DNA from: Gemmatimonadales bacterium
GTDB taxonomy: Bacteria; Gemmatimonadota; Gemmatimonadetes; Gemmatimonadales; GWC2-71-9
Assembly (NCBI GenBank): GCA_044221045.1
Contig: JBGAPX010000001.1
Location: forward strand, 56,608-120,607
Length of the DNA stretch: 64,000 nucleotides
Reading direction: 5' to 3'
Shown here: positions 7,160-58,693 of the stretch, piece after piece
Layout: each line of letters begins with the position of its first letter
How positions within the stretch are numbered: position 1 is the stretch's first letter
The notes under the pieces: model-generated
What the model saw: the letters and a program-made list of their open reading frames with translations, nothing else
Databases searched by the model: none
Told to the model about the DNA's origin: nothing
Made by a program: the position numbers and the translations under genes

Positions 7160-7731
7160 ATGACCATTCACCGCATTCGCATGCTCGGCGACCCGATTCT
7201 CCGGACCCGCTGTGAGCCGATCGCCAAGCCGCAGTCGGCGGCGGTGCGCGTGGTGGTCGATGACCTGCGCGAGACGCTGCGGGACTTCCAGTCCCGCTTC
7301 GGGTACGGCCGCGGCATCGCCGCGCCGCAGATCGGCGCGCCGGTCCGCATCGTCTACATCGAGATGGAGCAGCCCTGGCCGCTCATCAATCCGAGATCGT
7401 GGACGTCGGCAACGAGGACTTCACCGTCTGGGACGACTGCTTCTCGTTCCCCAACCTCCTGGTGCGGGTCTCCCGCGCGCACCACATCAAGGTGCGCTAC
7501 CAGGACCAGAAGGGCGCGTGGCACATCGCCGAGCTCGAGGGCGACCGCGCCGAGCTGGTGCAGCACGAGATCGACCACCTCGACGGCGTCCTCGCCGTGG
7601 ACCGCCCGCACGGCCTGGATCCCTTCTGCCTGCGCGAGGAATGGAACCGGCAGCACGCGCACGAGGGCCGCTACGGCGAACCCGAGCCGCGCTCCGAGAG
7701 CTACGCTGTCCCGCTGACCGGACTGCTGTAG
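7160..7731 (+). pseudogene. def: peptide deformylase, one frameshift at ~7391-7395 (probable sequence error)
   Basis: N-terminal part in ORF 7106..7717 (MTIHRIRMLGDPILR.. GIAAPQIG) and C-terminal part in ORF 7399..7731 (DDCFSFP, HEIDHLDG); LINP|EIVDVG junction restored by one extra base in AATCC-GAGATC. Confidence 0.9.
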
Positions 7732-39444: not shown

Positions 39445-39590
39445 AGGGTGGAGTGCTCAACCTTCGTTCAATCACGGGGTGGCGCAGGCTGCAACCTTGG
39501 CGGGGCCCGGCGCGTCAGGGCTCAAGGGGGGTCCCGTCCACCAGGGGGCCCCGGTAGGCGTCTCCCGTCTCTCGACCTAAGTTCAGGACC

Positions 39591-42500: not shown

Positions 42501-42716
42501 GAGCACTTCTCCCAGGAGGGATTCGACGTGCGCTGGCTGCTGCTGGGCCAGGCCCGGGTGCTGCGCGGGGAGATCTACGAGGGGCAGGGCAAGCCCGACC
42601 TGGCCCGGAAGGAGTACGAGGGGGCGCTGGCCCAGTGGGAGGACGCCGACAGCACCCTCACCCCCCTGATCGGCCGGGTGCGCACCCGGCTGGCCGGCCT
42701 GGCCGGCCCGGGGTAG
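39591..42716 (+). CDS. Ser/Thr protein kinase with TM segment and large TolB-N-like/TPR sensor region
   Basis: 1041 aa; HRDVKPENILL, DFGIARV, GTPTYMSPEQ; TM VGLVAAALGLALLVVGFLAL; C-terminal TPR-like repeats. Confidence 0.9.
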   Translation: MTEPPELMARLQAALGAQYRIERALGHGGMGVVFLARDTTLDRPVAVKVVHPELAVHTTITERFLAEARMIARLRHPGIVAVHTAGEATGVFYYVMDYVPGESLRQRLQREGALPVDQVERIVADLADALDAAGRAGLVHRDVKPENILLDEGSGRAMLADFGIARVMAGEGDGARTAQGVAVGTPTYMSPEQAAGEQVDARSDLYALGVVAYEMLTGRPPFRAENAAAVASKHLAEVAAPVAGKRPETPASLAHAVTRALEKDPARRWQTGAEMRDAAQGRTSAPAPPTRGRRVGLVAAALGLALLVVGFLALRPGGPPEGVNPRHSILVLPFDNQRQDPTVEWLRDGSVSMLALNLSQWTDLTVVDHERLHDLLARRKLDPRAAPGLEMARRLARDAGAWTVVLGEFTRVGDSLHLLARVFDVASGARVDAAEVHGRPGDDARPLFDQLALRLLNISGAPAGMTADLARVTTPSIEAYRAYLAGMDDLNRWNLGAAEQGFRRAVETDTSFGLAYYRLSLTRGWLAGPADSLGLVSIQRATRFAGRLPEHDRAMIGAYRLFLEGDYARGQAAYGALLAKDSTDADAWYGLGDAWFHDTASTNVASRMTRSLRAFKRTLALDPEYFLAFEHVAWIYRQAAQDKPFMALLPNDSLVSPGREGGRPGLDSFALAQAIRRARTDGIASARDWMSRQPDNDHAQNALLYALLASDDRAQALREMDRLRLAPEGRDRADLPFLRGRVLAATGETREALKAVAGALDTLTAGDFDVTRLPITAVGEVAGGANLLGYAGKVELAGKSLTLAAEVSAGYMPSAQQSQRLHGRTLYDYLLQSHLFTALGAPAARLQPLWDDVADSARRAPRGNRAAIVNYGWAAAMGLFLQDPSDPRPLEELQALDGNPTPPELQALTALDRGDSTRARALLALPDSATPPVYHKRPQWWGYRHMIAAHAWHALGDDTRALASLEIFAPEHFSQEGFDVRWLLLGQARVLRGEIYEGQGKPDLARKEYEGALAQWEDADSTLTPLIGRVRTRLAGLAGPG

Positions 42717-42758
42717 CCCCCCTGACCCCAGCCGGTCCCCTCACGTATCTTTCCCACA

Positions 42759-43158
42759 CAGGCTGGACGTGATGGTCGCGGGCCGGGCAACCGGTCCCGA
42801 GGAAAGTCCGAGCTCCACCGGGTAGACTGCCAGGTAACGCCTGGGCGCCGCAAGGCGACGGACAGGGCCACAGAAAACAGACCGCCTCCGGCGCGAGCCG
42901 GGGGTAAGGGTGAAACGGTGGGGTAAGAGCCCACCGCCCCGAGCGCAAGCAAGGGGGCACGGCAACCCCCAGTCGGTGCAAGGCCAAATAAGCGGCGAGG
43001 TGTGACCCACACCGCCCATGGGACGACGGGGCTTGCCCCGGGATTCCAAGCCGCGGGTAGGCTGCTCGAGGCGGCCGGCGACGGCCGTCCCAGATAGATG
43101 ACCATCTCCCGGAGGGGCAACCCCGAGGGAAACAGAACTCGGCTTACGGTCTGGCCTG
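42759..43158 (+). ncRNA. rnpB: RNase P RNA, bacterial class A
   Basis: Universal motifs GAGGAAAGTCCGAGCTCCAC, ACAGAAAACAGACCGCC, GGTAAGGGTGAAACGGTGGGGTAAGAGCCCACC, ACAGAACTCGGCTTAC; P1 pairing CAGGCTGGACG / CGGTCTGGCCTG defines the ends (+-5 nt). Confidence 0.93.
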
Positions 43159-43252
43159 GGGCCGGGGATCCGCGGGGGAGCGCGCGTCGTGCGCCGCCCG
43201 GGGCGCCCCGGCCCTCCCGTCCCCCGGGCGCCCGGGGTAGGTTCCTGAGTCA

Positions 43253-43510
43253 GTGTCCAGCAGGGTGTCACGCATGAGTCGATCGCCGTCGTCGCCGGAT
43301 CGGAACAAGCCGTACCCGGATTCGTGGGAGCAGGTGGCGGAACTGCGGGTGTTCCGGACCGCGGCCACGGACTGGGACCGGCTCGCCACCTGGCGGCAGG
43401 ACATGTGGAAGCGCGGCTGGCGGCTCCTCAAGGTCACCAGCGACGAGGTGGAGCTGGTGGCCGTCTTCGGCAAGACCAAGGCCGACCTGCAGTCGCCGGC
43501 CTCTCTCTAG
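43253..43510 (+). CDS. small hypothetical protein (85 aa; start may be 43274)
   Basis: ORF with balanced composition (DSWEQVAELRVFRTAATDWDRLATWRQDMWKRGWRLLKVTSDEVELVAVFGK); no family recognised. Confidence 0.45.
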   Translation: MSSRVSRMSRSPSSPDRNKPYPDSWEQVAELRVFRTAATDWDRLATWRQDMWKRGWRLLKVTSDEVELVAVFGKTKADLQSPASL

Positions 43511-43544
43511 TCGCAGTCCATCTCCCCATCACACAGAGGAAGTC

Positions 43545-44315
43545 ATGACGGTTCGTCCCTGGCTGGTCGCCCTGGTCAGCGTGAGCGCCCTCGCGGCGTG
43601 GACCGATGCGGCCCCCGCGGGTCCGGCGCGGTACCGGGTCGAGGTGAAGACCGCGGTCACGCAGGACCTCACCGCGGTGGGACAGGGTGAGCAGAAGCAG
43701 GAGTTCACCAACACCGGGTTCGTGACCGTGACGATGAAGGACAGCGCCGGCGGGCAGGCGGTGACGATCGTGCTCGACTCGCTGCTGCCGGGCGAGGGCT
43801 CGCCCTTCGTCGGGGAGATGGCGACGGGCGCGGCGGGCACCACCTGGACCGGGTTCCGGCAGCCGAACGGCCGGGTGAAGGAGCTCAAGAGCGGCTCCGA
43901 GAACCCCGCCGCCAACACCATGCAGGGCGTGCTGCAGCAGCTGCTGCCGCCGATGAAGGCCGGCACCCGCGAGGGCCAGGCGTGGACCGACACCACCGAG
44001 TCGGACAACGACGGCGTGGCGGTCCGCACCGTGACGAACTTCCAGACCACGGGCGAGACCGTGAACGGCGCCAAGGTGCTGCGGCTGGCGGGCGCGTCGA
44101 GCACGGCGATGTCCGGGCAGCAGAACGGCCCGCAGGGGAGCATGAGCCTCGAGGGGAACGGCACCGCCACCTCGAGCTGGCTCGTGGCCACCGACGGCAC
44201 CTGCCTCTCGTCGTCGTTCGCCGGCACCCAGAACATCGCGGTCACCGTGGCCCAGCTCCCCGAGCCGATCCCGGTGACGGTGAAGCTCGAGGGCTCCACC
44301 ACGCTGCTCAAATAG
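43545..44315 (+). CDS. secreted hypothetical protein (256 aa)
   Basis: Signal peptide MTVRPWLVALVSVSALAAWTDA; beta-rich sequence; paralog of next gene. Confidence 0.65.
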   Translation: MTVRPWLVALVSVSALAAWTDAAPAGPARYRVEVKTAVTQDLTAVGQGEQKQEFTNTGFVTVTMKDSAGGQAVTIVLDSLLPGEGSPFVGEMATGAAGTTWTGFRQPNGRVKELKSGSENPAANTMQGVLQQLLPPMKAGTREGQAWTDTTESDNDGVAVRTVTNFQTTGETVNGAKVLRLAGASSTAMSGQQNGPQGSMSLEGNGTATSSWLVATDGTCLSSSFAGTQNIAVTVAQLPEPIPVTVKLEGSTTLLK

Positions 44316-44317
44316 CC

Positions 44318-45199
44318 ATGCGCCACGGCTGGCGGGTCGCGGGGCTGCTCCTGGGCGCGGCATGCGCCTCGGGGGGCCCCGCGAGCCGTCCCGGGGGTCC
44401 CGCCCCGGCCCCGCCCGCCACGCCCCGCCCCAGCGTCGACCCGGTGCGCACCACGCCGGCGCCGCCGGTGGCGCTGCGCTACCCGCGCAGCGGCGGCGGC
44501 ATCGTCCGCTACGCGTTCCACCGCCGCGACTCGCTCACCGCCACGATGCCCAGCGGCGAGACCCAGGTGCAGCAGCTGGCGCGGACGGCGTACCTCACGC
44601 TCACCCTGGTGCACGCCGACAGCGGCAGCCGCATCACCGCGGTGGTCGACTCGGTGCGCCCCGACAGCGGCTTCGCCTTCGCCGCGCTGCTGCTCGACAG
44701 CGCCCGCGCCGCGCGCTGGACCGCCTGGCGCGACACCGCGGGCCACACCCGCGTGGACGCCGGCACCTCGCCCTCGCTCGCGGCGAGCCAGATCCGCGAC
44801 GAGCTGCAGCTGCTCTTCCCCCCGCTGCCGCCGCAGGGCGCGCTGCCCGGCGCCCGCTGGACCGACTCCACCACCATGGACGGCCGGGTGAGCGCCTTCG
44901 CCGCCACCGAGGTGGTGCACAGCCAGCTCGCCGCCGGCACCGCGCTCAGCGCCGCCGGGGCGGTGCCGGTGGAGGTGCTGCGCAGCCGCGCCGCGAGCGG
45001 CACCGGCACCCAGTTCGGCCAGCCGATCAGCGTGGCCGGCACCGGCGCCGACAGCCTGGCCTACCAGCTGTTCCCCGACGGCCGCGTGGTGCAGGTGGAA
45101 GGCCGCCGCTGGACCGACCTGGTGGTGAGCCTCCCGACGATCGGGCAGTCGGTGCCGGCGCGGGAATCCTCGACGCTCCTGTTCACGCTGCTGCGCTGA
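44318..45199 (+). CDS. hypothetical lipoprotein (293 aa), paralog of 43545..44315
   Basis: Start MRHGWRVAGLLLGAACAS (lipobox) inside ORF 43982..45199; shared block LL(F/P)PP..G..G..WTD(S/T)T with upstream gene. Confidence 0.65.
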   Translation: MRHGWRVAGLLLGAACASGGPASRPGGPAPAPPATPRPSVDPVRTTPAPPVALRYPRSGGGIVRYAFHRRDSLTATMPSGETQVQQLARTAYLTLTLVHADSGSRITAVVDSVRPDSGFAFAALLLDSARAARWTAWRDTAGHTRVDAGTSPSLAASQIRDELQLLFPPLPPQGALPGARWTDSTTMDGRVSAFAATEVVHSQLAAGTALSAAGAVPVEVLRSRAASGTGTQFGQPISVAGTGADSLAYQLFPDGRVVQVEGRRWTDLVVSLPTIGQSVPARESSTLLFTLLR

Positions 45200-45207
45200 G
45201 GCCCGGC

Positions 45208-46104
45208 ATGCGCCGCGCCCTCACCGTGCTCCTCGCCCTGGCGGCGCTGTTCGTGGCGTGGCTCTTCGCCATCTGGCCGCCCCCCCTCTGGTACCGCACC
45301 CACTGGCCCCGGCAGACCGCCTTCATGGCGATGCGCGCCGGCGACACCGTGCCGGTGCTGTACCGCCCCGTGCCGCTCGATTCCATCGCCCCGGTGATGC
45401 AGGACGCCGTGATCATCGGCGAGGACAACAACTTCCGCATCCACGGCGGGCTCGACTACCTGGCGCTGGCCCACGCGCTGGGCTACCAGCGCCGGACCTT
45501 CGCCTGGGACAACCCGCGCGACCGCCGGGAGCTCACCGCCCTGCTGCCCCACGCCTGGAGCCGGCGCGACAAGCTGCGCGGCGCCAGCACGATCTCGCAG
45601 CAGCTGGCCAAGAACCTCTACCTCAGCGCCTCCCGCAACCCGCTCCGCAAGGTGAAGGAGGCGGTGATCACCTGGCGGCTGGAGTCGGCGCTGGGGAAGG
45701 ACCGGATCATGGAGCTCTACCTGAACATCGTGGAGCTCGGCCGCGGCACCTGGGGGGTCGAGGCGGCGAGCCAGCGCTACTTCAAGCGCAGCGCCCGCCA
45801 GCTCACCACCGAGCAGGCCGCGGCGCTGGCCGGCGCGCTGCCGTTCCCGCTCTCGTCCAACCCCGGCTACCGCCCGGGCCGGATGCGCTGGCGCCAGAAC
45901 CTGATCCTGCGCCGGCTGCGGGGGGAGGCGGTGGAGGTGCCGAAGGTGGAGACCGAGACCGAACCGCCGGCGGTGGCGACGGACTCCACGGCGGCGCTCC
46001 CCGACACCGCGCCAGCGCCCCTGGAAGCCCCGCCGCCCGACGAACCGGTCCCGGTCGATACCCTGCCCGCCCCGGCCGACACGGCGGCGGAGGCGGCCCC
46101 CTGA
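45208..46104 (+). CDS. mtgA: monofunctional peptidoglycan glycosyltransferase (GT51)
   Basis: Start MRRALTVLLALAALFVAWL inside ORF 44362..46104; GT51 motifs IIGEDNNFRIHGGLD, ASTISQQLAKNLYL, RKVKEAVITWRLE; Pro/Ala-rich tail. Confidence 0.85.
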   Translation: MRRALTVLLALAALFVAWLFAIWPPPLWYRTHWPRQTAFMAMRAGDTVPVLYRPVPLDSIAPVMQDAVIIGEDNNFRIHGGLDYLALAHALGYQRRTFAWDNPRDRRELTALLPHAWSRRDKLRGASTISQQLAKNLYLSASRNPLRKVKEAVITWRLESALGKDRIMELYLNIVELGRGTWGVEAASQRYFKRSARQLTTEQAAALAGALPFPLSSNPGYRPGRMRWRQNLILRRLRGEAVEVPKVETETEPPAVATDSTAALPDTAPAPLEAPPPDEPVPVDTLPAPADTAAEAAP

Positions 46105-46934
46105 TGCGGAAGCGGCTGCAGCTGTTCACCGTGCGGACGGCGATGCGCACCCTGGGCCGGGTGGCCCCGGAGCGCGCCGCCCGGCTGGCCGAACGGCTCT
46201 TCACCCGGCCGCCCCGCGCCGCGGCCCGACCCCACGAGGACGACTTCCTGGCCACCGGCACCCCGTTCGAGCTGCCCATCAGCGTGGGGACGCTGGCGGC
46301 GTGGCGCTGGGGCGAGGGGCCGACGGTGCTGCTGGTGCATGGGTGGGCCAGCCGCGCCGCGCGCTTCCGGGTGCTGGTGCCGCGGCTGGTGGCGGCCGGC
46401 TTCTCCGCCGTGGCCTACGACGGTCCCGCCCACGGCCGCTCGCCGGGGCAGTACACCAGCCTGCCGGAGTACGCCGCCGCCCTGCTCGAGGTGAGCCGGC
46501 AGCTGGGGCCGCTGCACGCGGCGGTGGGACACTCGCTCGGTGGGGGCGCCATCGCGGTGGCGCTGGCGCGCGGGCTCTCGCTGCAGCGCGCGGCGCTGAT
46601 CGCGCCCTTCGCCGCGCCGCCGGAGTTCTTCGACCAGTTCGCCGACCACGTGGCGCTCCCGCCCAAGGCGCGCGCACGGCTGCGCACCAACCTGGAGCGG
46701 CGCTACAAGCTCAAGTACGGCGACCTCTACGTGCCGCACCTGGCCACCGCGTTCACCATCCCGGCGCTGGTGGTCCACGACCGCGACGACACGGACATCC
46801 CCATCGGCTACGGCAAGGCGATCGCGGAGGCGTGGCCGGGGGCCACCTTCGTGCGCACCGAGGGGCTGGGCCACCACGCGATCATGCGGGACCCGGGCGT
46901 GATGGACCGGGTGGCGGCGTTCATCGCGGGCTGA
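46104..46934 (+). CDS. alpha/beta hydrolase
   Basis: Start MRKRLQLFTVRT.. overlaps mtgA stop (TGATG) inside ORF 45258..46934; VLLVHGW, GHSLGG nucleophile elbow, GLGHHAI. Confidence 0.75.
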   Translation: MRKRLQLFTVRTAMRTLGRVAPERAARLAERLFTRPPRAAARPHEDDFLATGTPFELPISVGTLAAWRWGEGPTVLLVHGWASRAARFRVLVPRLVAAGFSAVAYDGPAHGRSPGQYTSLPEYAAALLEVSRQLGPLHAAVGHSLGGGAIAVALARGLSLQRAALIAPFAAPPEFFDQFADHVALPPKARARLRTNLERRYKLKYGDLYVPHLATAFTIPALVVHDRDDTDIPIGYGKAIAEAWPGATFVRTEGLGHHAIMRDPGVMDRVAAFIAG

Positions 46935-46956
46935 GGCGCGCACTGCGGTGCGCGCC
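46935..46956. terminator. perfect 9-bp stem/tetraloop hairpin between convergent genes
   Basis: GGCGCGCAC-TGCG-GTGCGCGCC immediately after the hydrolase stop and 4 nt before the stop of the minus-strand gene. Confidence 0.5.
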
Positions 46957-46960
46957 GGGG

Positions 46961-47293
46961 TCAGAGCAGGCCGGTGAGCAGCGCGTAGTTGAGGGCCATC
47001 GCCGCCAGGGCCACGCCCAGCACGGCCTTCCAGCGCGGCGTAAGCAGGTCCATCCCCTGCAGCTGCGAGATGTCCTCCCCCCGCTCCAGCCGTTCCTGCC
47101 GGTAGCCCTTGAACAGCACCAGCCCGATGCCCAGCACCACGAAGGCGGGGCCGGCCAGCCCCGCAAGCATGGAAAACTGGCCCTCTTCACGGGCCTGCAC
47201 CCAGGCCTGGTTGGTCATCCACGCGCTGGCGACGGCCATGGCGAGGCCGATGCCGCGCCGGGCCATGGGGGGAGGGTTGTTCTTGAGGTCCAT
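46961..47293 (-). CDS. small membrane protein (110 aa)
   Basis: ORF with three hydrophobic segments (IGLAMAVASAW, LAGLAGPAFVVLGIGLVLF, AVLGVALAAMALNYALLTGLL). Confidence 0.6.
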   Translation of the reverse strand: MDLKNNPPPMARRGIGLAMAVASAWMTNQAWVQAREEGQFSMLAGLAGPAFVVLGIGLVLFKGYRQERLERGEDISQLQGMDLLTPRWKAVLGVALAAMALNYALLTGLL

Positions 47294-47429
47294 GGGGGAG
47301 AAGGAGAGAAAAGGGAAACGGGAAGAGGGAAACGGGAAGGGGGAACTGCTCGCCCAATCGCCCAGCCGCCGAGCCGCCGAGCCGCCGAGCCGCCGAGCCG
47401 CCGAGCCGCCGAGCCGCCGAGCCGCCTAC
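47294..47429. repeat. composite array: ~8 heptamers (GGGAARN) then 10 octamers (TCGCCCAA TCGCCCAG (CCGCCGAG)x7 CCGCCTAC)
   Basis: Fills the whole gap between arginase stop (TAG 47426-47428, inside last unit) and the ATG of the downstream membrane protein (47293). Confidence 0.95.
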
Positions 47430-48304
47430 AGAATCTGCTTCCCGAACGCCGACTGGACCAGTTCCACGGCGAACTCGGCGGAGCGGTTGCGATCGTCGAG
47501 GATGGGGTTCACCTCGACCATCTCGAGCGAGGTGACGACCCGGGCGGCGGCGAGCGACTCCATGAGCAGCTGGGCCTCGCGGTAGTCGAGGCCGCCCTTG
47601 ACCGGGGTGCCGACGCCGGGCGCGAGCGACGGATCCACGGCGTCGAGGTCGAAGCTCACGTGGACGTAGTCGGTGTCCTTGGTGACCTGGGCGAGCGCCT
47701 TCTCCATGACGATGTGGATGCCATGGCGGTCGATGTCGGCGATGGTGTAGACGTGCACGCCGAGCCGGCGCAGGTGCTCGCGCTCGCCGTCATCCACGCT
47801 GCGGATCCCCACCAGCGCCACGTGGCCCGGTTCCACCTTGCGGAAGCGGCCGGCGATCCGGCCCAGCGGCGCGGGGCCCAGGCCGAGCAGCGCGGCGAGC
47901 GGCATGCCGTGGACGTTGCCGGAGGGCGAGGTCTTCGGGGTGTTGATGTCGCTGTGCGCGTCGACCCAGAGCACGCCGACCTTCCGGCCCTTGCTCCGGG
48001 CGTGGGCCGCCACGCCGGAAATGGTGCCCACCGCGATCGAGTGGTCGCCGCCGAGCACCAGGGGGACGTGGCCCCGCGCCAGCACGGCGCGCACCCGCTC
48101 GGCCAGGCGGGTGTTGGCCTGGACGATCTCCGCGAGGTAGCGCGCCCGGCGGTCGCCGACGCGCATGACCTCCATGTTGCGGATGTCGAGGTCGCCCTCG
48201 TCGATGACGGTGTAGCCCTGCTCGCGCAGGCGGTCGTTGAGGCCGGCGATGCGGATGGCGGAGGGACCCATGTCCACGCCGCGACGCCCGGACCCGAGGT
48301 CCAT
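47426..48304 (-). CDS. rocF: arginase-family ureohydrolase (arginase-like); true start probably ATG 48345 in another frame
   Basis: 292 aa; GGDHSIAVGTISG, WVDAHSDINTP, SFDLDAVDP; upstream in frame reads HAPRPQAIHIIGVP with no start, see finding. Confidence 0.85.
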   Translation of the reverse strand: MDLGSGRRGVDMGPSAIRIAGLNDRLREQGYTVIDEGDLDIRNMEVMRVGDRRARYLAEIVQANTRLAERVRAVLARGHVPLVLGGDHSIAVGTISGVAAHARSKGRKVGVLWVDAHSDINTPKTSPSGNVHGMPLAALLGLGPAPLGRIAGRFRKVEPGHVALVGIRSVDDGEREHLRRLGVHVYTIADIDRHGIHIVMEKALAQVTKDTDYVHVSFDLDAVDPSLAPGVGTPVKGGLDYREAQLLMESLAAARVVTSLEMVEVNPILDDRNRSAEFAVELVQSAFGKQIL

Positions 48305-48348: not shown

Positions 48349-48438
48349 GGCGGCTCGGCGGCTCGGCGACTCGGCGGCTCGGACTCCGGTCGGCCGGTCG
48401 GGAAGGCCGAGCCGACCAGCCGTCCAGCCGCCGAGCCG
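48349..48438. repeat. inverted octamer arrays (GGCGGCTC x4-5 versus CCGAGCCG-type) forming an imperfect hairpin
   Basis: GGCGGCTC GGCGGCTC GGCGACTC GGCGGCTC GGACTCCG ... GGCCGAGCCGACCAGCCGTCCAGCCGCCGAGCCG; ends 5 nt before dnaN stop. Confidence 0.85.
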
Positions 48439-48443
48439 TCAGA

Positions 48444-49559
48444 TCAGTCCACCAACCGGAGCGGCATGACCAGCGTCAGGTACGCCGCCGGGTCGTTCCA
48501 GCCCACCGGTTCGCAGGTGGCGGCGCGCTCGGGGCCCTTGAAGGTCATGCGCACCTCGTCGGTGGGCATGTACTTCATGATCTCGAGCAGGTAGGCGGCG
48601 TTGGGGCCGATCTCCATGGTCTCGCCGTCGTAGCTCACCGACAGCTCCTCCTGGGCCTCGCCCAGGTCCGGGGTCTGCACCGAGAGCTTGCAGGAGCCGT
48701 TGGCGAGTCCCATGCGGATGCGGTGGGTCTGGTCGCTGGCGACGATGCTCATGCGCTTGAGGGCCGAGGCGAGGGCCGCCTTGTCGGCGGTCATCATCTT
48801 GTCGTTCTCGCGCGGGATCACCTGCTCGTAGTTCGGGTACGGCCCCTCGATGAGCCGGGTGTAGACCTGGGTGGTCGCAGAGCGGAAGCCGAGGTGGTTC
48901 TCGCTCTTGGCGATCTCGAGCTCGTCCTGGTCGCCGAAGAGGCGGCGGATCTGGTCCAGCGCCTTGGGCGGGATGATGAGGTCGGCCTGGCCCTTGCCGA
49001 TGCCGGCGGTGACGGGCACGTCCATCCGGGCCAGCCGGTGGCCGTTGGTGGCCACCATGCGCATCCGCTCGGGCCGGAGCTCCCACAGCACGCCGTTCAG
49101 GATGGGGCGGCTCTCCTCCGTGCTGGCGGCGAACGCGACGTGGGAGACCAGCTTCTGGACGTCGCCGGCCTTGGAGCGCCAGGCGGCGTCGAACTTGACG
49201 GCGGGGAAGGCCGGGAATTCCTCGCGGGGGAGGCCCAGCAGCCGGAACTTGGAGCGGCCGCACTCGATGGTGGCCCGCTGCTCGCCCGAGCTGGTGAGGC
49301 GGATGGCCGCGCTCGGCAGCTCCCGGACGATGTCCGAGAGCTTCTTGGCCGGCAGGGTGATCGCGCCTTCCTGGTCCACGCTGGCCGGCACCGTGGTGCT
49401 GACCGCGATGTCGAGGTCGGTCCCGGAGAGCCGGAGCCCGTCGCCGGTGGCCTCGAGCAGCACGTTCGAGAGCACCGGCAGGGTGGTCTTCGTGGGAATC
49501 GAGGCGGTGACGGCTTGCAGTCCTTCCTGGAACTGCTCCCGCGTGATCGTGAACTTCAT
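48444..49559 (-). CDS. dnaN: DNA polymerase III beta sliding clamp
   Basis: Start MKFTITREQFQEGLQAV inside ORF 48444..49760; 371 aa; ends LVMPLRLVD. Confidence 0.95.
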   Translation of the reverse strand: MKFTITREQFQEGLQAVTASIPTKTTLPVLSNVLLEATGDGLRLSGTDLDIAVSTTVPASVDQEGAITLPAKKLSDIVRELPSAAIRLTSSGEQRATIECGRSKFRLLGLPREEFPAFPAVKFDAAWRSKAGDVQKLVSHVAFAASTEESRPILNGVLWELRPERMRMVATNGHRLARMDVPVTAGIGKGQADLIIPPKALDQIRRLFGDQDELEIAKSENHLGFRSATTQVYTRLIEGPYPNYEQVIPRENDKMMTADKAALASALKRMSIVASDQTHRIRMGLANGSCKLSVQTPDLGEAQEELSVSYDGETMEIGPNAAYLLEIMKYMPTDEVRMTFKGPERAATCEPVGWNDPAAYLTLVMPLRLVD

Positions 49560-49774
49560 CCCGTTCCTCGGCGTGCAAGAAGTACTACTGTTTCCCTGTT
49601 TACTTAAACTAGTAGTAACAGTAGGCGGTGGGGATATGTCGACACCGGCCCCAACTCCGCGCCGCGTCACCGGTTGCCCGGTTCCGGCCCTGTGGACCGG
49701 CTGTGGAGGGCGGGGACGGCATCCGGAGAAGTGCCCAGTTGTCACAGCAACATCTCCCATGTCCGCGTGGACAA
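49560..49774. other. candidate oriC segment (dnaA-dnaN intergenic): AT-rich element plus DnaA-box-like 9-mers
   Basis: AT-rich 49576-49624 (aagaagtactactgtttccctgtttacttaaactagtagtaacagtag, with CTACTGTT/AACAGTAG inverted repeat); TGTGGACCG 49691, TGTGGAG 49702, TTGTCACAG 49739, CGTGGACAA 49766. Confidence 0.5.
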
Positions 49775-51133
49775 CTACTGTGCAATCAGTTCCGTGCGCG
49801 CGCTTTCGATGCGGTCGCGGAAGCTGCGGTCGCGGGCCATCTGGCGCTGGACCTTGTCCACGCTGTGGATCACCGTGGAGTGGTCGCGCCCGCCGAGGCC
49901 TGCCCGATCTCGATCAGCTGCATCTGCAGGATGTCGCGGGCCAGGACATAACGATCCTGGCGCGGCACCAGGAGTCTTGATCGGGCCTTGAGGCGCAACT
50001 GCTCGAGGTCACCCCCAGCGCCAGGCCACGACGTCCTGGATCGGTCGATGGTGGGAAAAGTCGCAGGGTGGCCGCGAGGTCGTCCCAGGCGGATCTTGTC
50101 GGCCAGGGCCTCGCAGGCCAGCTCGATCGGCCTCGCGGTGTGAGCAAGCGAAGAGCAGCAGCTTGATGATGCAGCCCTCGGGCTCGGACGTTGGAGCGGA
50201 CGTGCTCGGCGATGAACCGGAGCACGTCGTCCGGGATGGTCATCTCGAGTGGTCCTGCTCCACCAGCTGCCGCGCAGGATGGCGATCCGGTGCTCGAGGT
50301 CGCTGGCCGATGTCGCAAACCCACCATGCCCCACTCGAAGCGGCTCACCAGCCGGGCCTCGGGCCCGGGATCTCGCGCGGGGGGCCGGTCGGAGGTCAGG
50401 ACGATCTGCTTCCCCGCCTCGTACAGGGCGTTGAAGGTGTGGAAGAACTCCTCCTGGGTACCTCGCCCTCGGAAGTGCACGTCGTCCACCCAGGAAGGGT
50501 CGATGTCTGCCGGTAGCGCTTGCTGACTCCCGGCATGGTGCGGCGCGAGATCCCTCGATCCTCATTGATGAACAACCGGCGCTCACGTACAGCACCCAGT
50601 GCCAGGGCTGCGGCGCAGCGCCAATGGCCGTGCGCGATCATGCTGCATCCGGAACAGGTCTTGCCCAGCCCCGGTGGCGCCGTAGATGAACAGGGGTTGT
50701 AGGTCTTGCCCGGGGCCTCGACCGCGGCGTGGGCGGCGCGGCGGCCAACTGGTTCGACTTGCCGATGGCCAGGTCAGGCTGTAGCGCTCGTTGAGCGGCT
50801 GGTTGCTCAGGTTGGACGCCACCAGGCGTAGCCGCCCGACGGGGGCTCGGCGGTTATCCTCCCCTGGGGCCGCCGCTGCCGGTCCTCCTGGACCCGGAAG
50901 GTGACCGTCACGGGCTTCCCCGCCACGGACTCCGCCAGCCGGGAGAGCAGGGCCCCGTGGTTGGTCTCGTTCCACTTGGCCGCGAACTCGTCGGGCACGG
51001 CGATGACCAGCCGGTCGTCCTCGAGGGCGACGGCTTCGGTGGGCTCGAGCCAGGCGCGCACGACCTTGTCGGGTAGCTTCTGCCCGGCTTCGTCGAGGAT
51101 GCGCTTCCAGATGTCTTTGGCGGACTGCTGCAT
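49775..51133 (-). pseudogene. dnaA: chromosomal replication initiator DnaA, reading frame broken at least 10 times
   Basis: Recognisable DnaA blocks are scattered over all three minus frames: MQQSAKDIWKRILDE.. (ORF 50807..51133), LNERY / PLFIYGATG (50583..50975), GTQEEFFHTFNALYEAGKQIVLTSDRPP, ARLVSRFEWGMV (49914..50489), LEHRIAILR, IELACEALADKI (49870..50595), GGRDHSTVIHSVDKVQRQMARDRSFRDRIESARTELIAQ* (short frame ending TAG 49775). Confidence 0.9.
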
Positions 51134-51259: not shown

Positions 51260-51421
51260 ATGAATCCGTCATACCGTCCGCGCAACAAGCGCCGGGTCGC
51301 GAAGCATGGCTTCCGGGCCCGCATGTCCACCCGCTGGGGCCGCGAGACCCTGTCCCGCCGCCGCAAGAAGGGGCGGAAGCAGCTCGTGGTGAGCATCGGC
51401 TCCAAAGACGGGAGCCGCTGA
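51260..51421 (+). CDS. rpmH: 50S ribosomal protein L34 (53 aa, C-terminally longer than usual)
   Basis: Not in ORF track (<60 aa); translated by hand: [53 protein letters not shown]; canonical HGFRARMST core. Confidence 0.9.
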
Positions 51422-51759
51422 CGCCAGGCGAACGGCGGCCGCGGTCGAGCCGCCTCGCGGGCCGGGCCGAACGGCTCCGGTGCCTCGAGCAGGGTCGCCG
51501 GCGCCGGCAGCGCTTGCTGGAGTTCATCTGGATGGACAACATGGTGGGCCACCCACGGATGGGACTGATCGTTCCGAAGTTCCAGTCCACGGCGGTGGCC
51601 CGCAATCGTTTACGGCGGCGCCTGCAGGAGCTGTGGCGCCGGGAGGTCCAGCCCAGGCAGGGCGGGCGGGACCTCCTGATCCGGGCCCGGAAGGAAGCCT
51701 ACGGCGTGCCGTTCCAGACGCTCAGGACCGAGCTGCTGACATGGGTGGGCGGGCTGTGA
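51418..51759 (+). CDS. rnpA: ribonuclease P protein component; start codon unresolved
   Basis: Frame of ORF 51232..51759; conserved [41 protein letters not shown]; no ATG/GTG/TTG in frame between rpmH and the conserved N-terminus (only CTG at 51418). Confidence 0.7.
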
Positions 51760-52070
51760 TGCTCGGCGGCTCGGCGGCTCGGCGACTCGGCGGCTCGGCG
51801 GATCGGCACCTCTTTCCCCGGCCCACCACGCCCCTCGGCTGGCTGCAGGCGCCGCTCACCTGGCTCAGCATCCTCCTCATCCGTCTCTACCAGCTCGTCA
51901 TCTCCCCGGGCCTCCCCTCGAGCTGCCGCTTTGCGCCCAGCTGTTCGGCGTACACGCTCGAGGCGGTGCAGCGCCACGGTGCCCTCCGGGGCATCTGGCT
52001 CGGCGCCCGCCGGCTCGATCGCGCCATCAGCCATGCTCGAGGCGGCCAGTTCCCTGACCCCGACGCATAG
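51759..52070 (+). CDS. yidD: membrane protein insertion efficiency factor YidD, with octamer array in codons 2-17
   Basis: ATG overlaps rnpA stop (TGATG); LIRLYQLVISPGLPSSCRFAPSCSAYTLEAVQRHGALRG; N-terminal LGGSAARRLGGSADRH is encoded by the array. Confidence 0.75.
   Translation: MLGGSAARRLGGSADRHLFPRPTTPLGWLQAPLTWLSILLIRLYQLVISPGLPSSCRFAPSCSAYTLEAVQRHGALRGIWLGARRLDRAISHARGGQFPDPDA
51761..51808. repeat. octamer array (GCTCGGCG x3, ACTCGGCG, GCTCGGCG, GATCGGCA) inside the yidD 5' end
   Basis: Six contiguous 8-nt units = 48 nt = 16 codons. Confidence 0.9.
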
Positions 52071-52175
52071 GCACTCATGGACCGCCGTGTGATCTGGGCG
52101 ATCGGCCTGATGATGATCATCGCCATCGCCCCCACCTTCTTCCTCAAGCCGCCGGCCAAGCCGGTGGTGTAGAAA

Positions 52176-52238
52176 CCGCCGATTCGGCGGCTCAGGCGGC
52201 TCGGTGACTCGACGGCTCGGCGGCTCGGCGACTCGGCC
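52176..52238. repeat. octamer array (7 degenerate GCTCGGCG-type units) starting with palindrome CCGCCGATTCGGCGG, inside yidC right after the TAG
   Basis: TTCGGCGG CTCAGGCG GCTCGGTG ACTCGACG GCTCGGCG GCTCGGCG ACTCGGCC. Confidence 0.85.
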
Positions 52239-52517
52239 GAAGTGCTTGGACGCGACAGCGCGTTCGGGCCCGTCGGCACCGTCGAGGCCGACGGCGCCAT
52301 CCGCCCCGCGGCCGACACGGTCGTGGTCTCGAGCCCGCTCTACCGCTACGAGTTGAGCACCCGCGGCGGCGCCCTGGTGCAGGCCACGCTGGCCCGGTAC
52401 AACGCCCTCGACCCTCGGGAAGGGCAAGCCGGTCGAGCTGCTGACCGCCCCGATCCACCAGCTCGCGATCAACGTGGGGAACGACACCCTGTCGCTGGCC
52501 GAGTGGGACTTCACGGT

Positions 52518-52549
52518 GCTCGGCGGCTCGGCGGCTCGGCGGCTCGAGG
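52518..52549. repeat. octamer array (GCTCGGCG x3, GCTCGAGG) inside the yidC periplasmic domain
   Basis: Encodes VLGGSAARRLEA in the yidC frame. Confidence 0.85.
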
Positions 52550-53780
52550 CGAAGGGGCAGCCCCAGGACCTGGTGCTCACCGGCGGCCGCGGCGGCGCGC
52601 AGGTGGAGCTCACCTACACCTTCCGCCCCGACGACTACCTGATCGGCGTGCGCGGCCGGGTCACCGGCCTCGGGCCGGTGGGCGGGCACCTGCTGATCGA
52701 CATGGGCAGCGGCTTCCGCCAGACCGAGGCCGACAGCGCCGCCAACTACTACGAGTTCGGCCTGGTCACCAAGACCGACGAGTCGAAGCTCACCAAGTTC
52801 TCCTCGCTCAAGCCGCTGGAGCGGCGCACCCTGGAGGGGCCGCTGGAGTGGGCGGCGGTCAAGGCCAAGTACTTCGTGGCCGCGGTGCTGGTGGTGGATT
52901 CCGGCGCGGCCCCGCTCTCCGGCGCCACGGCACAGGCGCTGCCGGCCGCCAAGAAGCCGACCCACGCCGCGGTGACCTTCGGGATGCCCATCGCCGCCGC
53001 CGGCGACTTCCAGTACCGCTTCTACCTGGGCCCGATGGAGTACCCGCGGCTCAAGGCGATCGGTCACGGCTTCTACGACATCAATCCCTACGGCTGGCCC
53101 GGCTTCCGCACCATGATCCGCCCGATCGCGGTGGGCGCGCGGTGGCTGCTGGTGTCCATGCACGAGAACCTGGGCCTGGCCTACGGCATCGTGCTGGTGC
53201 TGTTCGGGGTGCTGATCCGGATCGTGCTGTGGCCGCTCAACCAGAAGGGCATGCGCGCCAGCATCCGGATGCAGGGCCTGCAGCCCGAGATGCAGCGGAT
53301 CCAGGACAAGTACAAGGAAGACCCCGCGCGGATGCAGAAGGAAGTGATGGAGCTGTACAAGCGCGAGGGCGTGAACCCCTTCAGCGGCTGCTGGCCGCTG
53401 CTGCTGCCCTGGCCCATCCTGCTGGCGCTGTTCTTCGTGCTGTCGAACTCGATCGAGCTGCGCGGGCAGGCGTTCCTGTGGCTCCCCGACCTGGCGCTCA
53501 AGGACCCGCTCTACGTCATCCCGGTGGTGATGGGGCTGTCGATGTTCGCGGTGAACAAGGTCGGCATGATGGGCATGCCGCCCAACCCGCAGTCGAAGAT
53601 GATGCTGTACTTCCTGCCGGTGATGATGACGGTGATGTTCCTGAACTTCGCGTCGGGACTCAACCTGTACTACGCGGTGCAGAACCTCGTCAGCATCCCG
53701 CAGCAGTGGTACCTGGCCAAGGAGCGGCTCAAGGCCAAGCCGCCGGAAGTCGGCACGAAGAAGGGCTGACGGCGCGCCGA

Positions 53781-53863
53781 CGGGAAACGGAAAACGGGAA
53801 GCGGGAAGGCACGGAGCTCACCTCGCCTTCCCGCTTCCCTTTTCCCGTTTCCCGGTAGTTTTT
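53781..53863 (+). terminator. intrinsic terminator built from inverted heptamer arrays: 30-nt arms (28/30 paired) + T5
   Basis: CGGGAAACGGAAAACGGGAAGCGGGAAGGC (53781-53810), 14-nt loop, GCCTTCCCGCTTCCCTTTTCCCGTTTCCCG (53825-53854), then GTAGTTTTT; 11 nt after yidC stop. Confidence 0.7.
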
Positions 53864-53878: not shown

Positions 53879-55188
53879 ATGCTCTCGGACCCCATCGTCG
53901 CCCTCGCCACCCCGCCCGGCCGCTCCGCGCTCGCGGTGATCCGGCTCTCGGGCGCGGGGGCGTTCGGGATCGCGGCGCGGGTCATCCCCGGCTTCCGCGC
54001 CGACCCGCCGCGCACCGCGCATTACGCCGCCTTCCGCGACGCCGCCGGCCAGCTGATCGACCGGGGGATCTACCTGGTGTTCGCCGGCCCGCGCTCCGAG
54101 ACCGGCGAGGACGTGGTGGAGTTCCAGTGCCACGGCGGGCTCGCGGTGCCGGCGCGGCTGGTGGCGGCGATCGAGGCCGCCGGCGCGCGCCCCGCCCACC
54201 CGGGGGAGTTCACCCGCCGCGCGGTGATGCACGGGAAGCTCGACCTGCTCCAGGCCGAGGCGCTGGGCGACCTCATCGATGCCGAGGCGCCGGCGCAGGC
54301 CCGCGCCGCGCTGGTGCAGCTGGAGGGCGGGCTCTCCCGCCGGATCGCGGCGCTCCCCGCGCCGGGCTGGTGGAGCTGCTGGCGCTGCTCGCGTACGACG
54401 TGGACTTCCCCGAGGAAGACGACGGCCCCGTTGCCCGCGACCGGATCGAGGCCGCCCGCGCCACCGTGCTCGCCGGGGTGGAGCAGCTGCTCGGCACCGC
54501 GCCGCTCGCCGACCGGGTGCGCCGCGGCGCGCTGGTGGTGCTGGCCGGCCCGCCCAACGCCGGCAAGTCGTCGCTGTTCAACGCCCTGCTCGGGAGCGAA
54601 CGGGCGCTGGTCACCGAGATCCCCGGCACCACCCGCGACGCCATCGAGGCCCACGTGGAGTTCCACGGCTGGCCCATCCGCCTGGTGGATACCGCCGGCC
54701 TCGGCGAGGCCACCGACCGGCTCGACGCGCTGGGCCAGGCGATGGGCCGGCGATTCGTGGAGGGGGCGGATCTGGTGGTGGAGCTGGGCGGCCTGGCGGT
54801 TCGGCGGCTCGGCGGTTCGGAGGCTGCACCGCTGCTGGTCCGCGCCAAGGCCGACCTGGGTGGCGAGGGGGAGGGGCTCCCGGTGTCGGCGGTGACGGGG
54901 CAGGGGCTCGCGGAGCTCAAGCGCGCCATCGTCGCGCGGCTGTTCCAGTCCGGCGCCGGCTTCGCCGACCTGGAGCCGGCGCTCACCCGCGAGCGGCACC
55001 GGGTGGCGCTCAGTACCGCGCGCGACGCCCTCGCGGCCACCGCCACCCAACTCGGCCCCCGTGGCGAGGCGGTGCTCGCCGCACATCACGTGCAGGAGGC
55101 GGTGCGCGCACTCGATGGCCTGGTGGGAGTGGTGGATGTGGAGGAGGTGCTGGACCGGGTGTTTGCGAGTTTTTGCGTGGGGAAGTAG
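53879..55188 (+). pseudogene. mnmE: tRNA modification GTPase MnmE, single frameshift in the C4 run at 54355-54358 (probable sequence error)
   Basis: N-terminal half in ORF 53879..54895 (MLSDPIVALATPPGRSALAVIRLSG, GKLDLLQAEALGDLI), C-terminal half in ORF 54127..55188 (GPPNAGKSSLFNALLG, DTAGL, ..FCVGK*); total 1310 nt = 437 codons minus 1 nt. Confidence 0.9.
54787..54826. repeat. octamer array (GGCGGCCT GGCGGTTC GGCGGCTC GGCGGTTC GGAGGCTG) inside the mnmE G-domain
   Basis: Encodes ELGGLAVRRLGGSEA between the ADLVV and LLVRAKADL strands. Confidence 0.85.
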
Positions 55189-55198
55189 GCCCGACGGA

Positions 55199-55323
55199 CG
55201 GGAAGCGGGAAACGGGAAGCGGGAAGCGGAACCGCCGATCCCCGCGGCTTTCGCCGGCGCCCGGGAACCCGAGCCGTCTTGCTGAGTAGCGCCCTCTTCC
55301 CGCTTCCCGCTTCCCTTTTCCCG
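55199..55323. repeat. inverted heptamer arrays separated by a 61-nt spacer
   Basis: CGGGAAG CGGGAAA CGGGAAG CGGGAAG CGGAACC (55199-55233) ... CTCTTCC CGCTTCC CGCTTCC CTTTTCC CG (55294-55323); 10 nt after mnmE stop, 9 nt before the next ATG. Confidence 0.9.
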
Positions 55324-56124: not shown

Positions 56125-56130
56125 ATTGCC

Positions 56131-56218
56131 GGGAAGCGGGAAGCGGGAAGCGGGAAGCGGGAAGCGGGAAGCGGGAAGCGGGAGGCGGCGGACTCCGCTT
56201 CCCGTTTCCCGTTTCCCG
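56131..56218. repeat. (GGGAAGC)x7 + GGGAGGC, short loop, then (GCTTCCC GTTTCCC GTTTCCC)
   Basis: Seven perfect units 56131-56179; partial complementary arm 56194-56218; 6 nt after the MOSC stop. Confidence 0.95.
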
Positions 56219-56253
56219 TCTAGTCTTCACCCAATCTCACCCCAGCGACATCC

Positions 56254-57051: not shown

Positions 57052-57058
57052 GAACAGC

Positions 57059-57323
57059 GGGAAGCGGGAAGCGGGAAGCGGGAAGCGGGAAGCGGGAAAC
57101 GGGAAACGGGAAACGGGAAACGGGAAACGGGAAGGGGGAAAGGGGGAAAGGGAAGCGGGAAGGGGAACCCGCGAGAGCCAGGGGAGTACATCAAACCGCC
57201 CAACCGCCACTCCCTCGCGCCCGGGTCGCCGCTACGCGGCTCCCGAAGGGCGCTCGGTCGCCGCCCTACCGCCCTACCGCCCTACCGCCTTACCGCCTTA
57301 CCGCCCTACCGCCTACCGCCCCT
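57059..57323. repeat. largest composite element: (GGGAAGC)5 (GGGAAAC)5 + ~5 degenerate heptamers, conserved core, (CCGCCCTA/CCGCCTTA)x8
   Basis: Heptamers 57059-57170; core ..CCGCCCAACCGCCACTCCCTCGCGCCCGGGTCGCCGCTACGCGGCTCCCGAAGGGCGCTCGGTCGCCG 57195-57260; octamers 57261-57323; fills the gap between convergent speB and CDGSH genes. Confidence 0.95.
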
Positions 57324-58562: not shown

Positions 58563-58693
58563 GGCGGTTGGGCGGTTGGGCGGTTGGGCGGTTGGGCGGT
58601 TGGGCGATTGGGCGACTGGGCGACTGGACGGCGCAGATGCCTTGGCCTCGCCTTCCCGCTTCCCTCTTCCCTTTTCCCTTTTCCCTCTTCCCG
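58563..58693. repeat. composite array: (GGCGGTTG)x5 GGCGATTG (GGCGACTG)x2, spacer, (NNCTTCC)x6
   Basis: Octamers 58563-58629, heptamers 58650-58693; ends flush with the TGA (58694) of the BTAD regulator gene. Confidence 0.95.

What the first reader, a model, noticed from the sequence alone, without database searches (positions are those of the whole stretch)
49775..51133. dnaA is shattered across all three reading frames while its neighbours dnaN and rpmH are intact
Every DnaA domain is recognisable, with highly conserved wording:
- domain I: MQQSAKDIWKRIL
- LNERY, PLFIYGATG, GLGKT
- GTQEEFFHTFNALYEAGKQIVLTSDRPP, ARLVSRFEWGMV, LEHRIAILR
- domain IV: GGRDHSTVIHSVDKVQRQMARDRSF..

The blocks alternate between frames at least ten times within 1.36 kb. 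Both one-base losses (GCCTTCGG read as GCCTCGG) and apparent gains occur. Amino-acid conservation inside each block is too good for an old pseudogene.

Two explanations remain. The first is a stretch of very poor consensus quality, for example an unpolished assembly end or circularisation junction, which is commonly placed at dnaA. The second is a very recent inactivation of the initiator, which would be biologically remarkable.
Basis: partly seen in the sequence, partly recalled or inferred. Interest (0 to 1): 0.6.

Follow-up and report, generated by a model that had tools for sequence, protein, structure and literature searches.

The report
dnaA scrambled by a sequencing-error patch
The replication-initiator gene dnaA looks shattered only because about 1 kb of this assembled sequence carries raw-read-level noise; ten independent assemblies of the same species have a perfectly intact gene, so this is an ordinary assembly artefact, not a bacterium living without its initiator.

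Summary
dnaA (49775..51133, minus strand) has about 30 indel events and 29 frame changes, net -24 nt.

The damage is a sharp-edged patch (49897..50863), not gene-wide. The first 270 nt and last 123 nt of dnaA, the dnaA-rpmH spacer, rpmH and rnpA are 100% identical to short-read contigs of the same species, which match the window at about 99% outside the patch.

Ten such contigs from different samples all carry an intact 460-codon dnaA, with 0-3 nt differences among them and no amino-acid differences. None shares any of the window's indels.

Inside the patch the window is only 89% identical to that allele:
- The indels are deletion-biased.
- Substitutions show no third-position excess.
- Substitutions fall on evolutionarily invariant sites at the chance rate, and short stretches are garbled.

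Neutral decay cannot give about 11% divergence next to 0% divergent flanks.

The window also has scattered 1-2 bp frameshifts in def, yidC and mnmE, plus garbled stretches at the yidD 3' end and yidC 5' end. So "neighbours intact" holds only for dnaN, rpmH and rnpA.

Verdict: a local patch of poor consensus, most likely uncorrected long-read sequence. Real pseudogenisation is effectively excluded (about 2%). Interest is low.

The parts
49775..51133 (-). dnaA, the chromosomal replication initiator. It is 1359 nt here against 1383 nt (460 codons plus stop) in intact copies, and cannot be read as one ORF in the window.
49897..50863 (.). Main noise patch (dnaA nt 271-1260). It is 89.1% identical to the same-species allele, with 49 mismatches and 38 gap openings (59 gapped bases) over 990 aligned columns. 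Indels are deletion-biased and short blocks are garbled.
50864..51133 (-). dnaA 5' 270 nt (domain I), 100% identical to the short-read contig L081.
49775..49896 (-). dnaA 3' end (last 40 sense codons plus the stop; end of domain IV), 100% identical to L081.
49738..49765 (.). Second small error cluster, in the dnaA-dnaN spacer just 3' of dnaA: three deletions (1, 4 and 1 nt) and a few mismatches relative to L081.
48444..49559 (-). dnaN (beta clamp), an intact 371-codon ORF with only 5 substitutions against L081.
51260..51421 (+). rpmH (L34), intact, with a product identical to that of the ten short-read contigs. The downstream rnpA (about 51532..51759) also shows 0 differences.
52023..52049 (+). 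Garbled 3' end of yidD: mismatches plus a 1-nt and a 7-nt deletion and a 1-nt insertion against L081.
52077..53769 (+). yidC, broken in the window. The garbled stretch 52170-52194 creates an in-frame TAG at 52170-52172. A 2-bp deletion at 52415 (C5 to C3) shifts the frame. The gene is 563 aa and intact in the short-read contigs.
53879..55188 (+). mnmE, with one frameshift from a 2-bp insertion at 54357 (C2 to C4). It is 435 aa and intact in the short-read contigs.
7160..7731 (+). def (peptide deformylase), split by a 1-nt frameshift near 7393. Pfam profile positions 2-64 lie in one frame and 83-150 in the next. This shows that sporadic indels occur far from dnaA too.

Best explanation
dnaA in this Gemmatimonadales organism is an ordinary, intact, 460-codon initiator gene. 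The window's copy is corrupted by a roughly 1-kb patch of raw-read-grade sequence noise. The patch differs from the true allele by about 11%, with deletions outnumbering insertions and short blocks garbled. It sits inside a contig that is otherwise of high consensus quality.

**Shown**
- The patch has sharp edges that ignore gene boundaries.
- Its flanks are identical to independent short-read assemblies of the same species.
- Those assemblies all carry an intact gene.
- The differences are random with respect to codon position and evolutionary constraint.
- The same contig has a few other 1-2 bp changes that break the reading frame in conserved genes, three of them in runs of a single base.

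**Inferred**
- The contig comes from a long-read (Nanopore-like) or hybrid assembly.
- In that assembly this segment escaped polishing or had almost no read support.
- One possible reason is that the dnaA core is among the most conserved DNA locally between co-occurring relatives, so reads or graph paths there are ambiguous.
For: 1. **Same-species references.** Ten MEGAHIT contigs from different ENA samples share the gene order. They match the window at 98.8-99.7% over 10.7-25.0 kb and 28.5-49.5 kb and at 98.8-99.2% over 57.3-61.3 kb. Their alignments that cross the patch score 95.7-97.7%.
2. **Intact gene elsewhere.** All ten have a 1383-nt dnaA, with 0-3 nt differences among them and 0 amino-acid differences.
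3. **Sharp edges.** Window against L081 shows zero differences over 51195-50864 and 49896-49766. Between them the identity is 89.1%, with 49 mismatches and 38 gap openings. At that density about 43 differences would be expected in the 393 clean nt of dnaA; none is observed.
4. **Indel profile.** There are 26 deletion events against 7 insertion events, in sizes of 1-5 nt.
5. **Codon position.** Substitutions in dnaA fall 27/20/12 on codon positions 1/2/3. Every other gene in the 20 kb compared is dominated by position 3.
6. **Randomness against constraint.** 66% of patch mismatches hit sites invariant in 13 intact sequences, and 68% of sites are invariant. Only 17% match a base seen in any relative.
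7. **Clean elsewhere.** There are no frameshifting indels in 10.7-25.0 kb or 29.0-48.3 kb. Isolated 1-2 bp frameshifts occur in yidC and mnmE and in def.
8. **Pattern among relatives.** Among 89 related loci, a frame-split dnaA occurs only in 4 of 17 MFD MAGs, the Nanopore-only set assembled with Flye and one Medaka round. It occurs in none of the 72 other loci.
9. **Known cause.** Long-read errors are a documented cause of false pseudogenes (PMC12007338, abstract).
Against: - No reads, depth or assembly metadata are available, so the technical cause is inferred rather than observed.
- The window's own source record was not found.
- Deletions are only weakly enriched in homopolymers: 15 of 26, against 47% of bases lying in runs.
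- The equally conserved dnaN segment is undamaged, so "conserved region" alone does not explain why this spot was hit.
- An 11% error level is high for current R10.4 Nanopore chemistry.
Confidence: 0.93

Rival explanations
1. Real, very recent inactivation of dnaA in this strain. The gene would be a true pseudogene and the cell would initiate replication without DnaA.
For: - The gene cannot be translated as it stands.
- The window is a slightly different strain from the short-read contigs, with about 0.3-1% substitutions elsewhere, so strain-specific changes are possible in principle.
- From general knowledge, DnaA-independent replication exists in some endosymbionts and cyanobacteria.
Against: - The damage stops 270 nt inside the 5' end and 123 nt before the stop codon. 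It reappears outside the gene in the spacer. A gene freed from selection decays along its whole length.
- The flanks, including the non-coding dnaA-rpmH spacer, show 0 differences. There was therefore no time for about 11% neutral divergence.
- There are 38 gap openings against 49 mismatches in the BLAST alignment, whereas real bacterial pseudogenes accumulate far more substitutions than indels (general knowledge).
- yidC, which is essential, as well as mnmE and def, are also broken.
- None of ten population contigs shares any of the lesions.
Confidence: 0.02
2. Still an artefact, but of a different kind: a chimeric consensus made by piling reads from several co-occurring strains or species onto the highly conserved dnaA core.
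For: - The dnaA core is a local maximum of cross-species nucleotide identity, at 93-96% against about 70-85% elsewhere.
- It holds the longest exact inter-species run found, 119 bp.
- Eight short-read contigs of relatives end inside dnaA, so the region does tangle assemblies.
Against: - Only 18 of 104 patch mismatches match a base seen in any of 12 related species.
- The mismatches hit invariant sites at the chance rate. They are noise, not foreign alleles.
- The patch is closest to the same-species allele (89.1%) and not to any other (at most 84.7%).
- The equally conserved part of dnaN is clean.
Confidence: 0.1
3. Still an artefact, but caused by a contig-end overlap or circularisation junction that was merged and never re-polished.
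For: - The additional small error islands lie within a few kb on both sides, from 48.3 to 54.4 kb.
- Pipelines commonly rotate or join assemblies at dnaA (general knowledge).
Against: - The window is collinear with ten short-read contigs straight through the patch. There is no duplicated, missing or rearranged segment beyond the net -24 nt.
- The patch lies inside the gene and not at its start.
- The edges are abrupt and not graded.
- A sporadic frameshift also occurs 42 kb away, in def.
Confidence: 0.12
4. Still an artefact, but driven by DNA methylation: systematic Nanopore base-calling errors at a modified motif (for example GATC) that is dense in this region.
For: - GATC is denser in the patch (12 per kb) than the window mean of 5.5 per kb.
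- Several one-base G-run errors sit directly 5' of GATC, for example at 50043, 49983 and 49957, and in def at 7393.
Against: - There is no significant association. 8 of 12 GATC sites have an error within 3 nt, against 6.6 expected (P = 0.29). No association was found for CCWGG, GGCC, CCGG, GCGC or CGCG either.
- Other 1-kb bins with 10-14 GATC sites are error-free where they could be compared.
- GATC sites inside the clean 3' end of dnaA are unaffected.
Confidence: 0.03

Closest known systems
DnaA chromosomal replication initiator (Pfam DnaA_N PF11638, Bac_DnaA PF00308, Bac_DnaA_C PF08299) in the conserved rpmH / dnaA-dnaN origin neighbourhood
   Same: - Same locus, orientation and neighbours: rnpA-rpmH is divergent from dnaA-dnaN.
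- The N-terminal 90 codons and C-terminal 41 codons are identical to the intact same-species protein.
- All domain motifs are recognisable in one frame or another.
   Different: - The window copy has no continuous ORF.
- The Walker A region and most of domains III-IV are interrupted by 29 frame changes.
- This difference belongs to the sequence record, not to the organism.
False pseudogenes created by indel errors in long-read or hybrid assemblies (for example the problem addressed by Kastor, PMC12007338; Nanopore-only MAGs such as the Microflora Danica set, PMC12313526)
   Same: - Deletion-biased small indels.
- Frameshifts in essential, conserved genes.
- The lesions are absent from short-read assemblies of the same population.
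- Relatives with a split dnaA are all Nanopore-only MAGs.
   Different: - Typical consensus errors are isolated homopolymer slips, like those seen here in yidC and mnmE.
- A 1-kb block with about 11% error and garbled stretches is far denser. It looks like unpolished raw-read sequence rather than residual consensus error.
Genuine loss or decay of dnaA in reduced endosymbionts and some cyanobacteria (general knowledge, not tested here)
   Same: There is no translatable dnaA in the sequence as given.
   Different: - Real cases show gene-wide decay or absence, matching divergence of the flanks, and persistence across independent genomes of the lineage.
- Here the flanks are identical to intact copies, and ten of ten independent assemblies are intact.

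Membership tests
DnaA initiator family | N-terminal DnaA_N domain (domain I) | tested here: met
   PF11638 hits the 108-aa ORF 50810-51133(-) with E = 7.6e-9, above the curated cut-off. These 270 nt are identical to L081.
DnaA initiator family | Continuous AAA+ ATPase domain (Bac_DnaA PF00308) with an intact Walker A motif GxxGxGKT | tested here: not met
   - Only profile positions 103-160 of 162 are found, in one 191-aa fragment.
- The Walker A region is split over frames and altered: "GATGAGQ" in one frame and "GLGKTCSG" in another.
- The feature is met in full (positions 1-161, E = 4e-67) by the same-species copy L081.
DnaA initiator family | C-terminal DNA-binding domain (Bac_DnaA_C PF08299) | tested here: inconclusive
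   - No Pfam hit in any window fragment.
- The last 41 codons (FGGRDHSTVIHSVDKV...) are identical to L081, whose full protein hits PF08299 at E = 2.5e-27.
DnaA initiator family | Single open reading frame of about 460 codons next to dnaN | tested here: not met
   The window has 29 frame changes. Ten same-species contigs and 77 of 89 related loci have a full-length in-frame gene.
Genuine bacterial pseudogene | Lesions distributed over the whole former gene, with divergence matched by neutral sites in the flanks | tested here: not met
   All lesions lie in gene nt 271-1260. There are 0 differences in the other 393 nt, in the dnaA-rpmH spacer, in rpmH or in rnpA.
Genuine bacterial pseudogene | The same lesions present in independent samplings of the lineage | tested here: not met
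   None of ten same-species contigs from different samples carries any of the indels. The broken N-terminal product is absent from the protein-position index.
Long-read consensus or unpolished-segment artefact | Differences random with respect to codon position and evolutionary constraint; indels about as frequent as substitutions; deletion bias | tested here: met
   - Codon positions 27/20/12.
- 66% of mismatches fall on invariant sites, against 68% expected.
- 38 gap openings against 49 mismatches.
- 26 deletion events against 7 insertion events.
Long-read consensus or unpolished-segment artefact | Other sporadic homopolymer-length errors elsewhere in the same contig | tested here: met
   - yidC: C5 to C3 at 52415.
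- mnmE: C2 to C4 at 54357.
- Arginase gene: G3 to G2 at about 48327.
- def: frameshift at about 7393.
Long-read consensus or unpolished-segment artefact | Low or anomalous read depth, or failed polishing, at the locus; long-read provenance of the record | not testable with these tools
   No reads or metadata are available. The source record was not found.

The most novel reading that the evidence does not exclude
The lesions are real. Under this reading, a free-living soil Gemmatimonadales strain has just suffered a localised burst of mutation that destroyed the core of dnaA (and nicked yidC and mnmE). It would persist through DnaA-independent replication or as a non-viable or rescued subpopulation.
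Probability: 0.02. Interest if true: 0.8.

Novelty: not a real feature. Interest (0 to 1): 0.05.

Why it matters
Biologically it does not matter, because the organism has a normal dnaA.

It matters practically. Automated annotation of this record would report dnaA, yidC, mnmE and def as pseudogenes. That could mislead completeness estimates, essential-gene surveys or claims of initiator loss. The case shows a quick way to settle such calls without reads: compare the region with independent short-read contigs of the same population.

Tried and rejected
1. **Finding the window's own source record.** Exact-product look-ups for DnaN and for the broken 108-aa DnaA fragment found nothing. A 31-mer from the garbled stretch found nothing in JGI metagenome contigs. 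Provenance and assembly method therefore remain unknown.
2. **Methylation-motif explanation.** There was no significant association of errors with GATC, CCWGG, GGCC, CCGG, GCGC or CGCG.
3. **Strain-mixture consensus.** The patch mismatches do not match alleles of relatives.
4. **Foreign dnaA allele.** I considered whether the patch came from another species. It is closest to the same-species allele.
5. **Homopolymer-only error model.** The enrichment is weak, at 15 of 26 deletions against a 47% base rate.
6. **DnaA-box census, to argue the origin is still in use.** Only 2 boxes with at most 1 mismatch were found in the window. This is too few to be informative.
7. **Exact-product look-ups for four other window proteins** failed. 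As a result 1-10.7 kb, 25-28.5 kb and 61.3-64 kb were not compared with a same-species reference. Frame plots covered those stretches, and Pfam scans of selected ORFs in them revealed the def frameshift.
8. **Programmed frameshifting or recoding** was dismissed, because 29 frame changes plus garbled blocks are incompatible with it.

Full report
**1. What is in the sequence**

The window has 72% G+C. The finding lies in a typical origin neighbourhood:
- dnaN at 48444..49559 (-)
- dnaA at 49775..51133 (-)
- rpmH at 51260..51421 (+), divergent from dnaA, followed by rnpA, yidD, yidC and mnmE

The longest pieces are ORFs of 108, 130, 191, 241 and 32 aa. Pfam recognises DnaA_N in the N-terminal piece and the tail of the AAA+ Bac_DnaA domain in one fragment, and nothing else.

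**2. Who the organism is and what an intact copy looks like**

A search of species-representative genomes with the DnaN protein returned Gemmatimonadales and Gemmatimonadota MAGs. DnaN was up to 98% identical at the protein level, but the DNA was only about 80-83% identical, so these are other species. Of the fourteen checked, twelve carry an uninterrupted dnaA ORF spanning the 460-codon gene (459 in L015); L013 and L014 do not and are treated in section 6. In a multiple alignment with twelve of them, about 29 indel events are private to the window. All lie between gene nt 309 and 1236.

**3. Same-species references**

An exact-product look-up with the window's RpmH found ten MEGAHIT short-read contigs, from different ENA assemblies, with the same gene order.
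- They match the window at 98.8-99.7% over 10.7-25.0 kb and 28.5-49.5 kb and at 98.8-99.2% over 57.3-61.3 kb. Their alignments that cross the patch score 95.7-97.7%.
- Each encodes an intact 460-aa DnaA.
- Among the ten, dnaA differs at 0-3 of 1383 nt and at no amino acid.

**4. Anatomy of the damage**

Binned differences between the window and L081 are 0-4 substitutions and no indels per 250 bp over most of the 20 kb compared; a few strain-variable bins reach 33 substitutions, and the isolated indels are those listed in section 6. Between 49738 and 50863 there are about 60 substitutions, 31 deletions and 11 insertions.

The base-level alignment shows abrupt edges:
- 51195-50864 is 100% identical. 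This covers the first 270 nt of dnaA and part of the spacer towards rpmH.
- 49896-49766 is 100% identical. This covers the last 123 nt of dnaA.
- The 967 nt in between are 89.1% identical, with 49 mismatches, 38 gap openings and 59 gapped bases.

Some stretches are simply garbled. For example, ATGGACTTCTTCGTGAGC is read as GGGAGGATAACCGCCGAG at 50863-50846.

Tracking the frame gives 30 in-gene indel events, 29 frame changes and a net loss of 24 nt. The net loss is a multiple of three, which is why the first and last segments share a frame. A second small cluster lies outside the gene, in the dnaA-dnaN spacer at 49738-49765.

**5. Noise or evolution?**

Five results point to noise.
- **The lesions ignore the gene's boundaries.** At the patch's density, about 43 differences would be expected in the 393 clean nt of dnaA, and none is seen.
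- **The neighbouring neutral sites have not diverged.** The dnaA-rpmH spacer, rpmH and rnpA show 0 differences. Time-dependent decay to about 11% is therefore impossible.
- **Codon positions differ from real variation.** Substitutions in dnaA fall 27/20/12 on positions 1/2/3. All other genes in the region are dominated by position 3, for example 9/12/40 in mnmE and 5/1/14 in the second arginase gene.
- **Mismatches are random with respect to constraint.** 66% of patch mismatches hit sites invariant in 13 intact sequences, and 68% of sites are invariant. Only 17% match a base present in any relative.
- **The indel profile fits raw-read noise.** In the BLAST alignment there are 38 gap openings against 49 mismatches. 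Deletions outnumber insertions 26 to 7, with sizes of 1-5 nt.

The patch is still closest to the same-species allele, at 89.1% against at most 84.7% for any other species. It is therefore a noisy copy of the right gene and not a foreign allele.

**6. The rest of the contig**

Against same-species contigs there are no frameshifting indels in 10727-25039 or in 29019-48300. The only changes there are copy-number differences in intergenic microsatellites and one in-frame 3-nt indel.

There are, however, isolated small lesions:
- arginase gene: G3 to G2 at about 48327
- yidD: 3' end garbled (52023-52049)
- yidC: a garbled stretch creating a TAG at 52170-52172, and C5 to C3 at 52415
- mnmE: C2 to C4 at 54357
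- def: a 1-nt frameshift at about 7393, with the two halves of the Pfam deformylase profile in different frames

The contig as a whole therefore behaves like a polished long-read consensus with occasional homopolymer slips and one badly unpolished segment.

Consistent with this, among 89 related loci a frame-split dnaA occurs in 4 of the 17 MFD MAGs and in none of the 72 other loci. The MFD set is Nanopore-only, assembled with Flye and polished with one Medaka round.

**7. Why here?**

This is unresolved.
- The dnaA core is one of two local maxima of cross-species nucleotide identity, at 93-96%. It contains the longest exact inter-species match found (119 bp), and eight short-read contigs of relatives break inside dnaA. 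Ambiguous read placement or graph tangling in a mixed community is therefore plausible.
- Against that, the equally conserved dnaN segment is clean, and the mismatches are not foreign alleles.
- A methylation-motif cause was tested and not supported.
- A circularisation or contig-end junction cannot be excluded. It is not favoured, because the window is collinear with ten contigs through the patch.

**8. Comparison with what is known, and verdict**

The gene belongs at the DnaA locus by position, by its identical ends and by its recognisable motifs. As written in the window, it fails the family's requirement for a continuous AAA+ domain and a single ORF. That failure belongs to the record and not to the organism.

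The phenomenon matches the well-known class of false pseudogenes produced by long-read indel errors (PMC12007338). It is an unusually dense example.

Real pseudogenisation is retained only as a remote possibility of about 2%. Nothing here is novel biology, so interest is low. The decisive check is read mapping or an amplicon across 49.6-51.3 kb.

Noticed in passing
window 28950-29053, 47359-47426, 48349-48382, 51761-51807, 52184-52237, 52518-52546, 60787-61004; also 7775-7840, 32280-32320, 35580-35611, 53780-53807, 55199-55323, 56130-56219, 57056-57167, 58652-58692; 57261-57321; 58563-58631, 62545-62664: Intergenic DNA is peppered with 7-8-nt microsatellite arrays, in both orientations: (CGCCGAGC)n, (CGGGAAG)n, (GGCGGTTG)n and (CCGCCCTA)n. 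They often flank genes as opposed pairs, and one extends into the 5' coding part of yidC. Copy number differs between the window and same-species short-read contigs, for example +32 bp at about 47375, +38 bp at 28948 and +14 bp at 56130. Their function is unknown.
   Followed up: partly
window 7160-7731 (+): Peptide deformylase (def) is split by a 1-nt frameshift near 7393. CCGAGATCG appears where CCGGAGATCG is expected. Pfam profile positions 2-64 and 83-150 lie in different frames. No same-species reference was available to confirm that it is an error.
   Followed up: partly
window 54500-55250 (3' half of mnmE): About 10% divergence from the short-read contigs, made only of substitutions and mostly at third positions (9/12/40 on positions 1/2/3 for the whole gene), in an otherwise 99%-identical region. 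This looks like genuine strain variation or a recombination tract. It is a useful contrast to the dnaA patch.
   Followed up: partly
loci L013, L014, L022, L028 (dnaA upstream of dnaN, around 8390-9775): Four related MAGs have dnaA split over two frames. All four belong to the MFD set, which is Nanopore-only. None of the 72 other related loci does.
   Followed up: partly
loci L024, L026, L038, L042, L060, L065, L074, L080: Eight short-read contigs of related Gemmatimonadales end inside dnaA. This suggests that its highly conserved core breaks short-read metagenome assemblies.
   Followed up: no
window 14017-19074 (+) and 18000-20000: A 1685-aa RHS/YD-repeat protein is called identically in the short-read contigs (Pfam TEN_YD-shell). 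Its 3' end and downstream DNA drop to about 61% G+C.
   Followed up: no
window 10735-12300 and 12297-13805 (+): Tandem paralogous sodium:solute symporter (SSF) genes, about 83% identical at the DNA level.
   Followed up: no
locus L088 7155-8270: In one short-read contig of the same species, dnaN is called as two pieces (125 + 202 aa). It differs from L081 only by 13 substitutions and has no indels. This may be a nonsense variant or a mis-assembly.
   Followed up: partly
window 49575-49640: An AT-rich stretch (gaagtactactgtttccctgtttacttaaactagtagtaacagtagg) lies in the dnaA-dnaN spacer. It could be the origin's unwinding element. Only weak DnaA-box matches lie nearby: TTGTCCACG at 49766 and TTTTCCACA at 51187.
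   Followed up: partly
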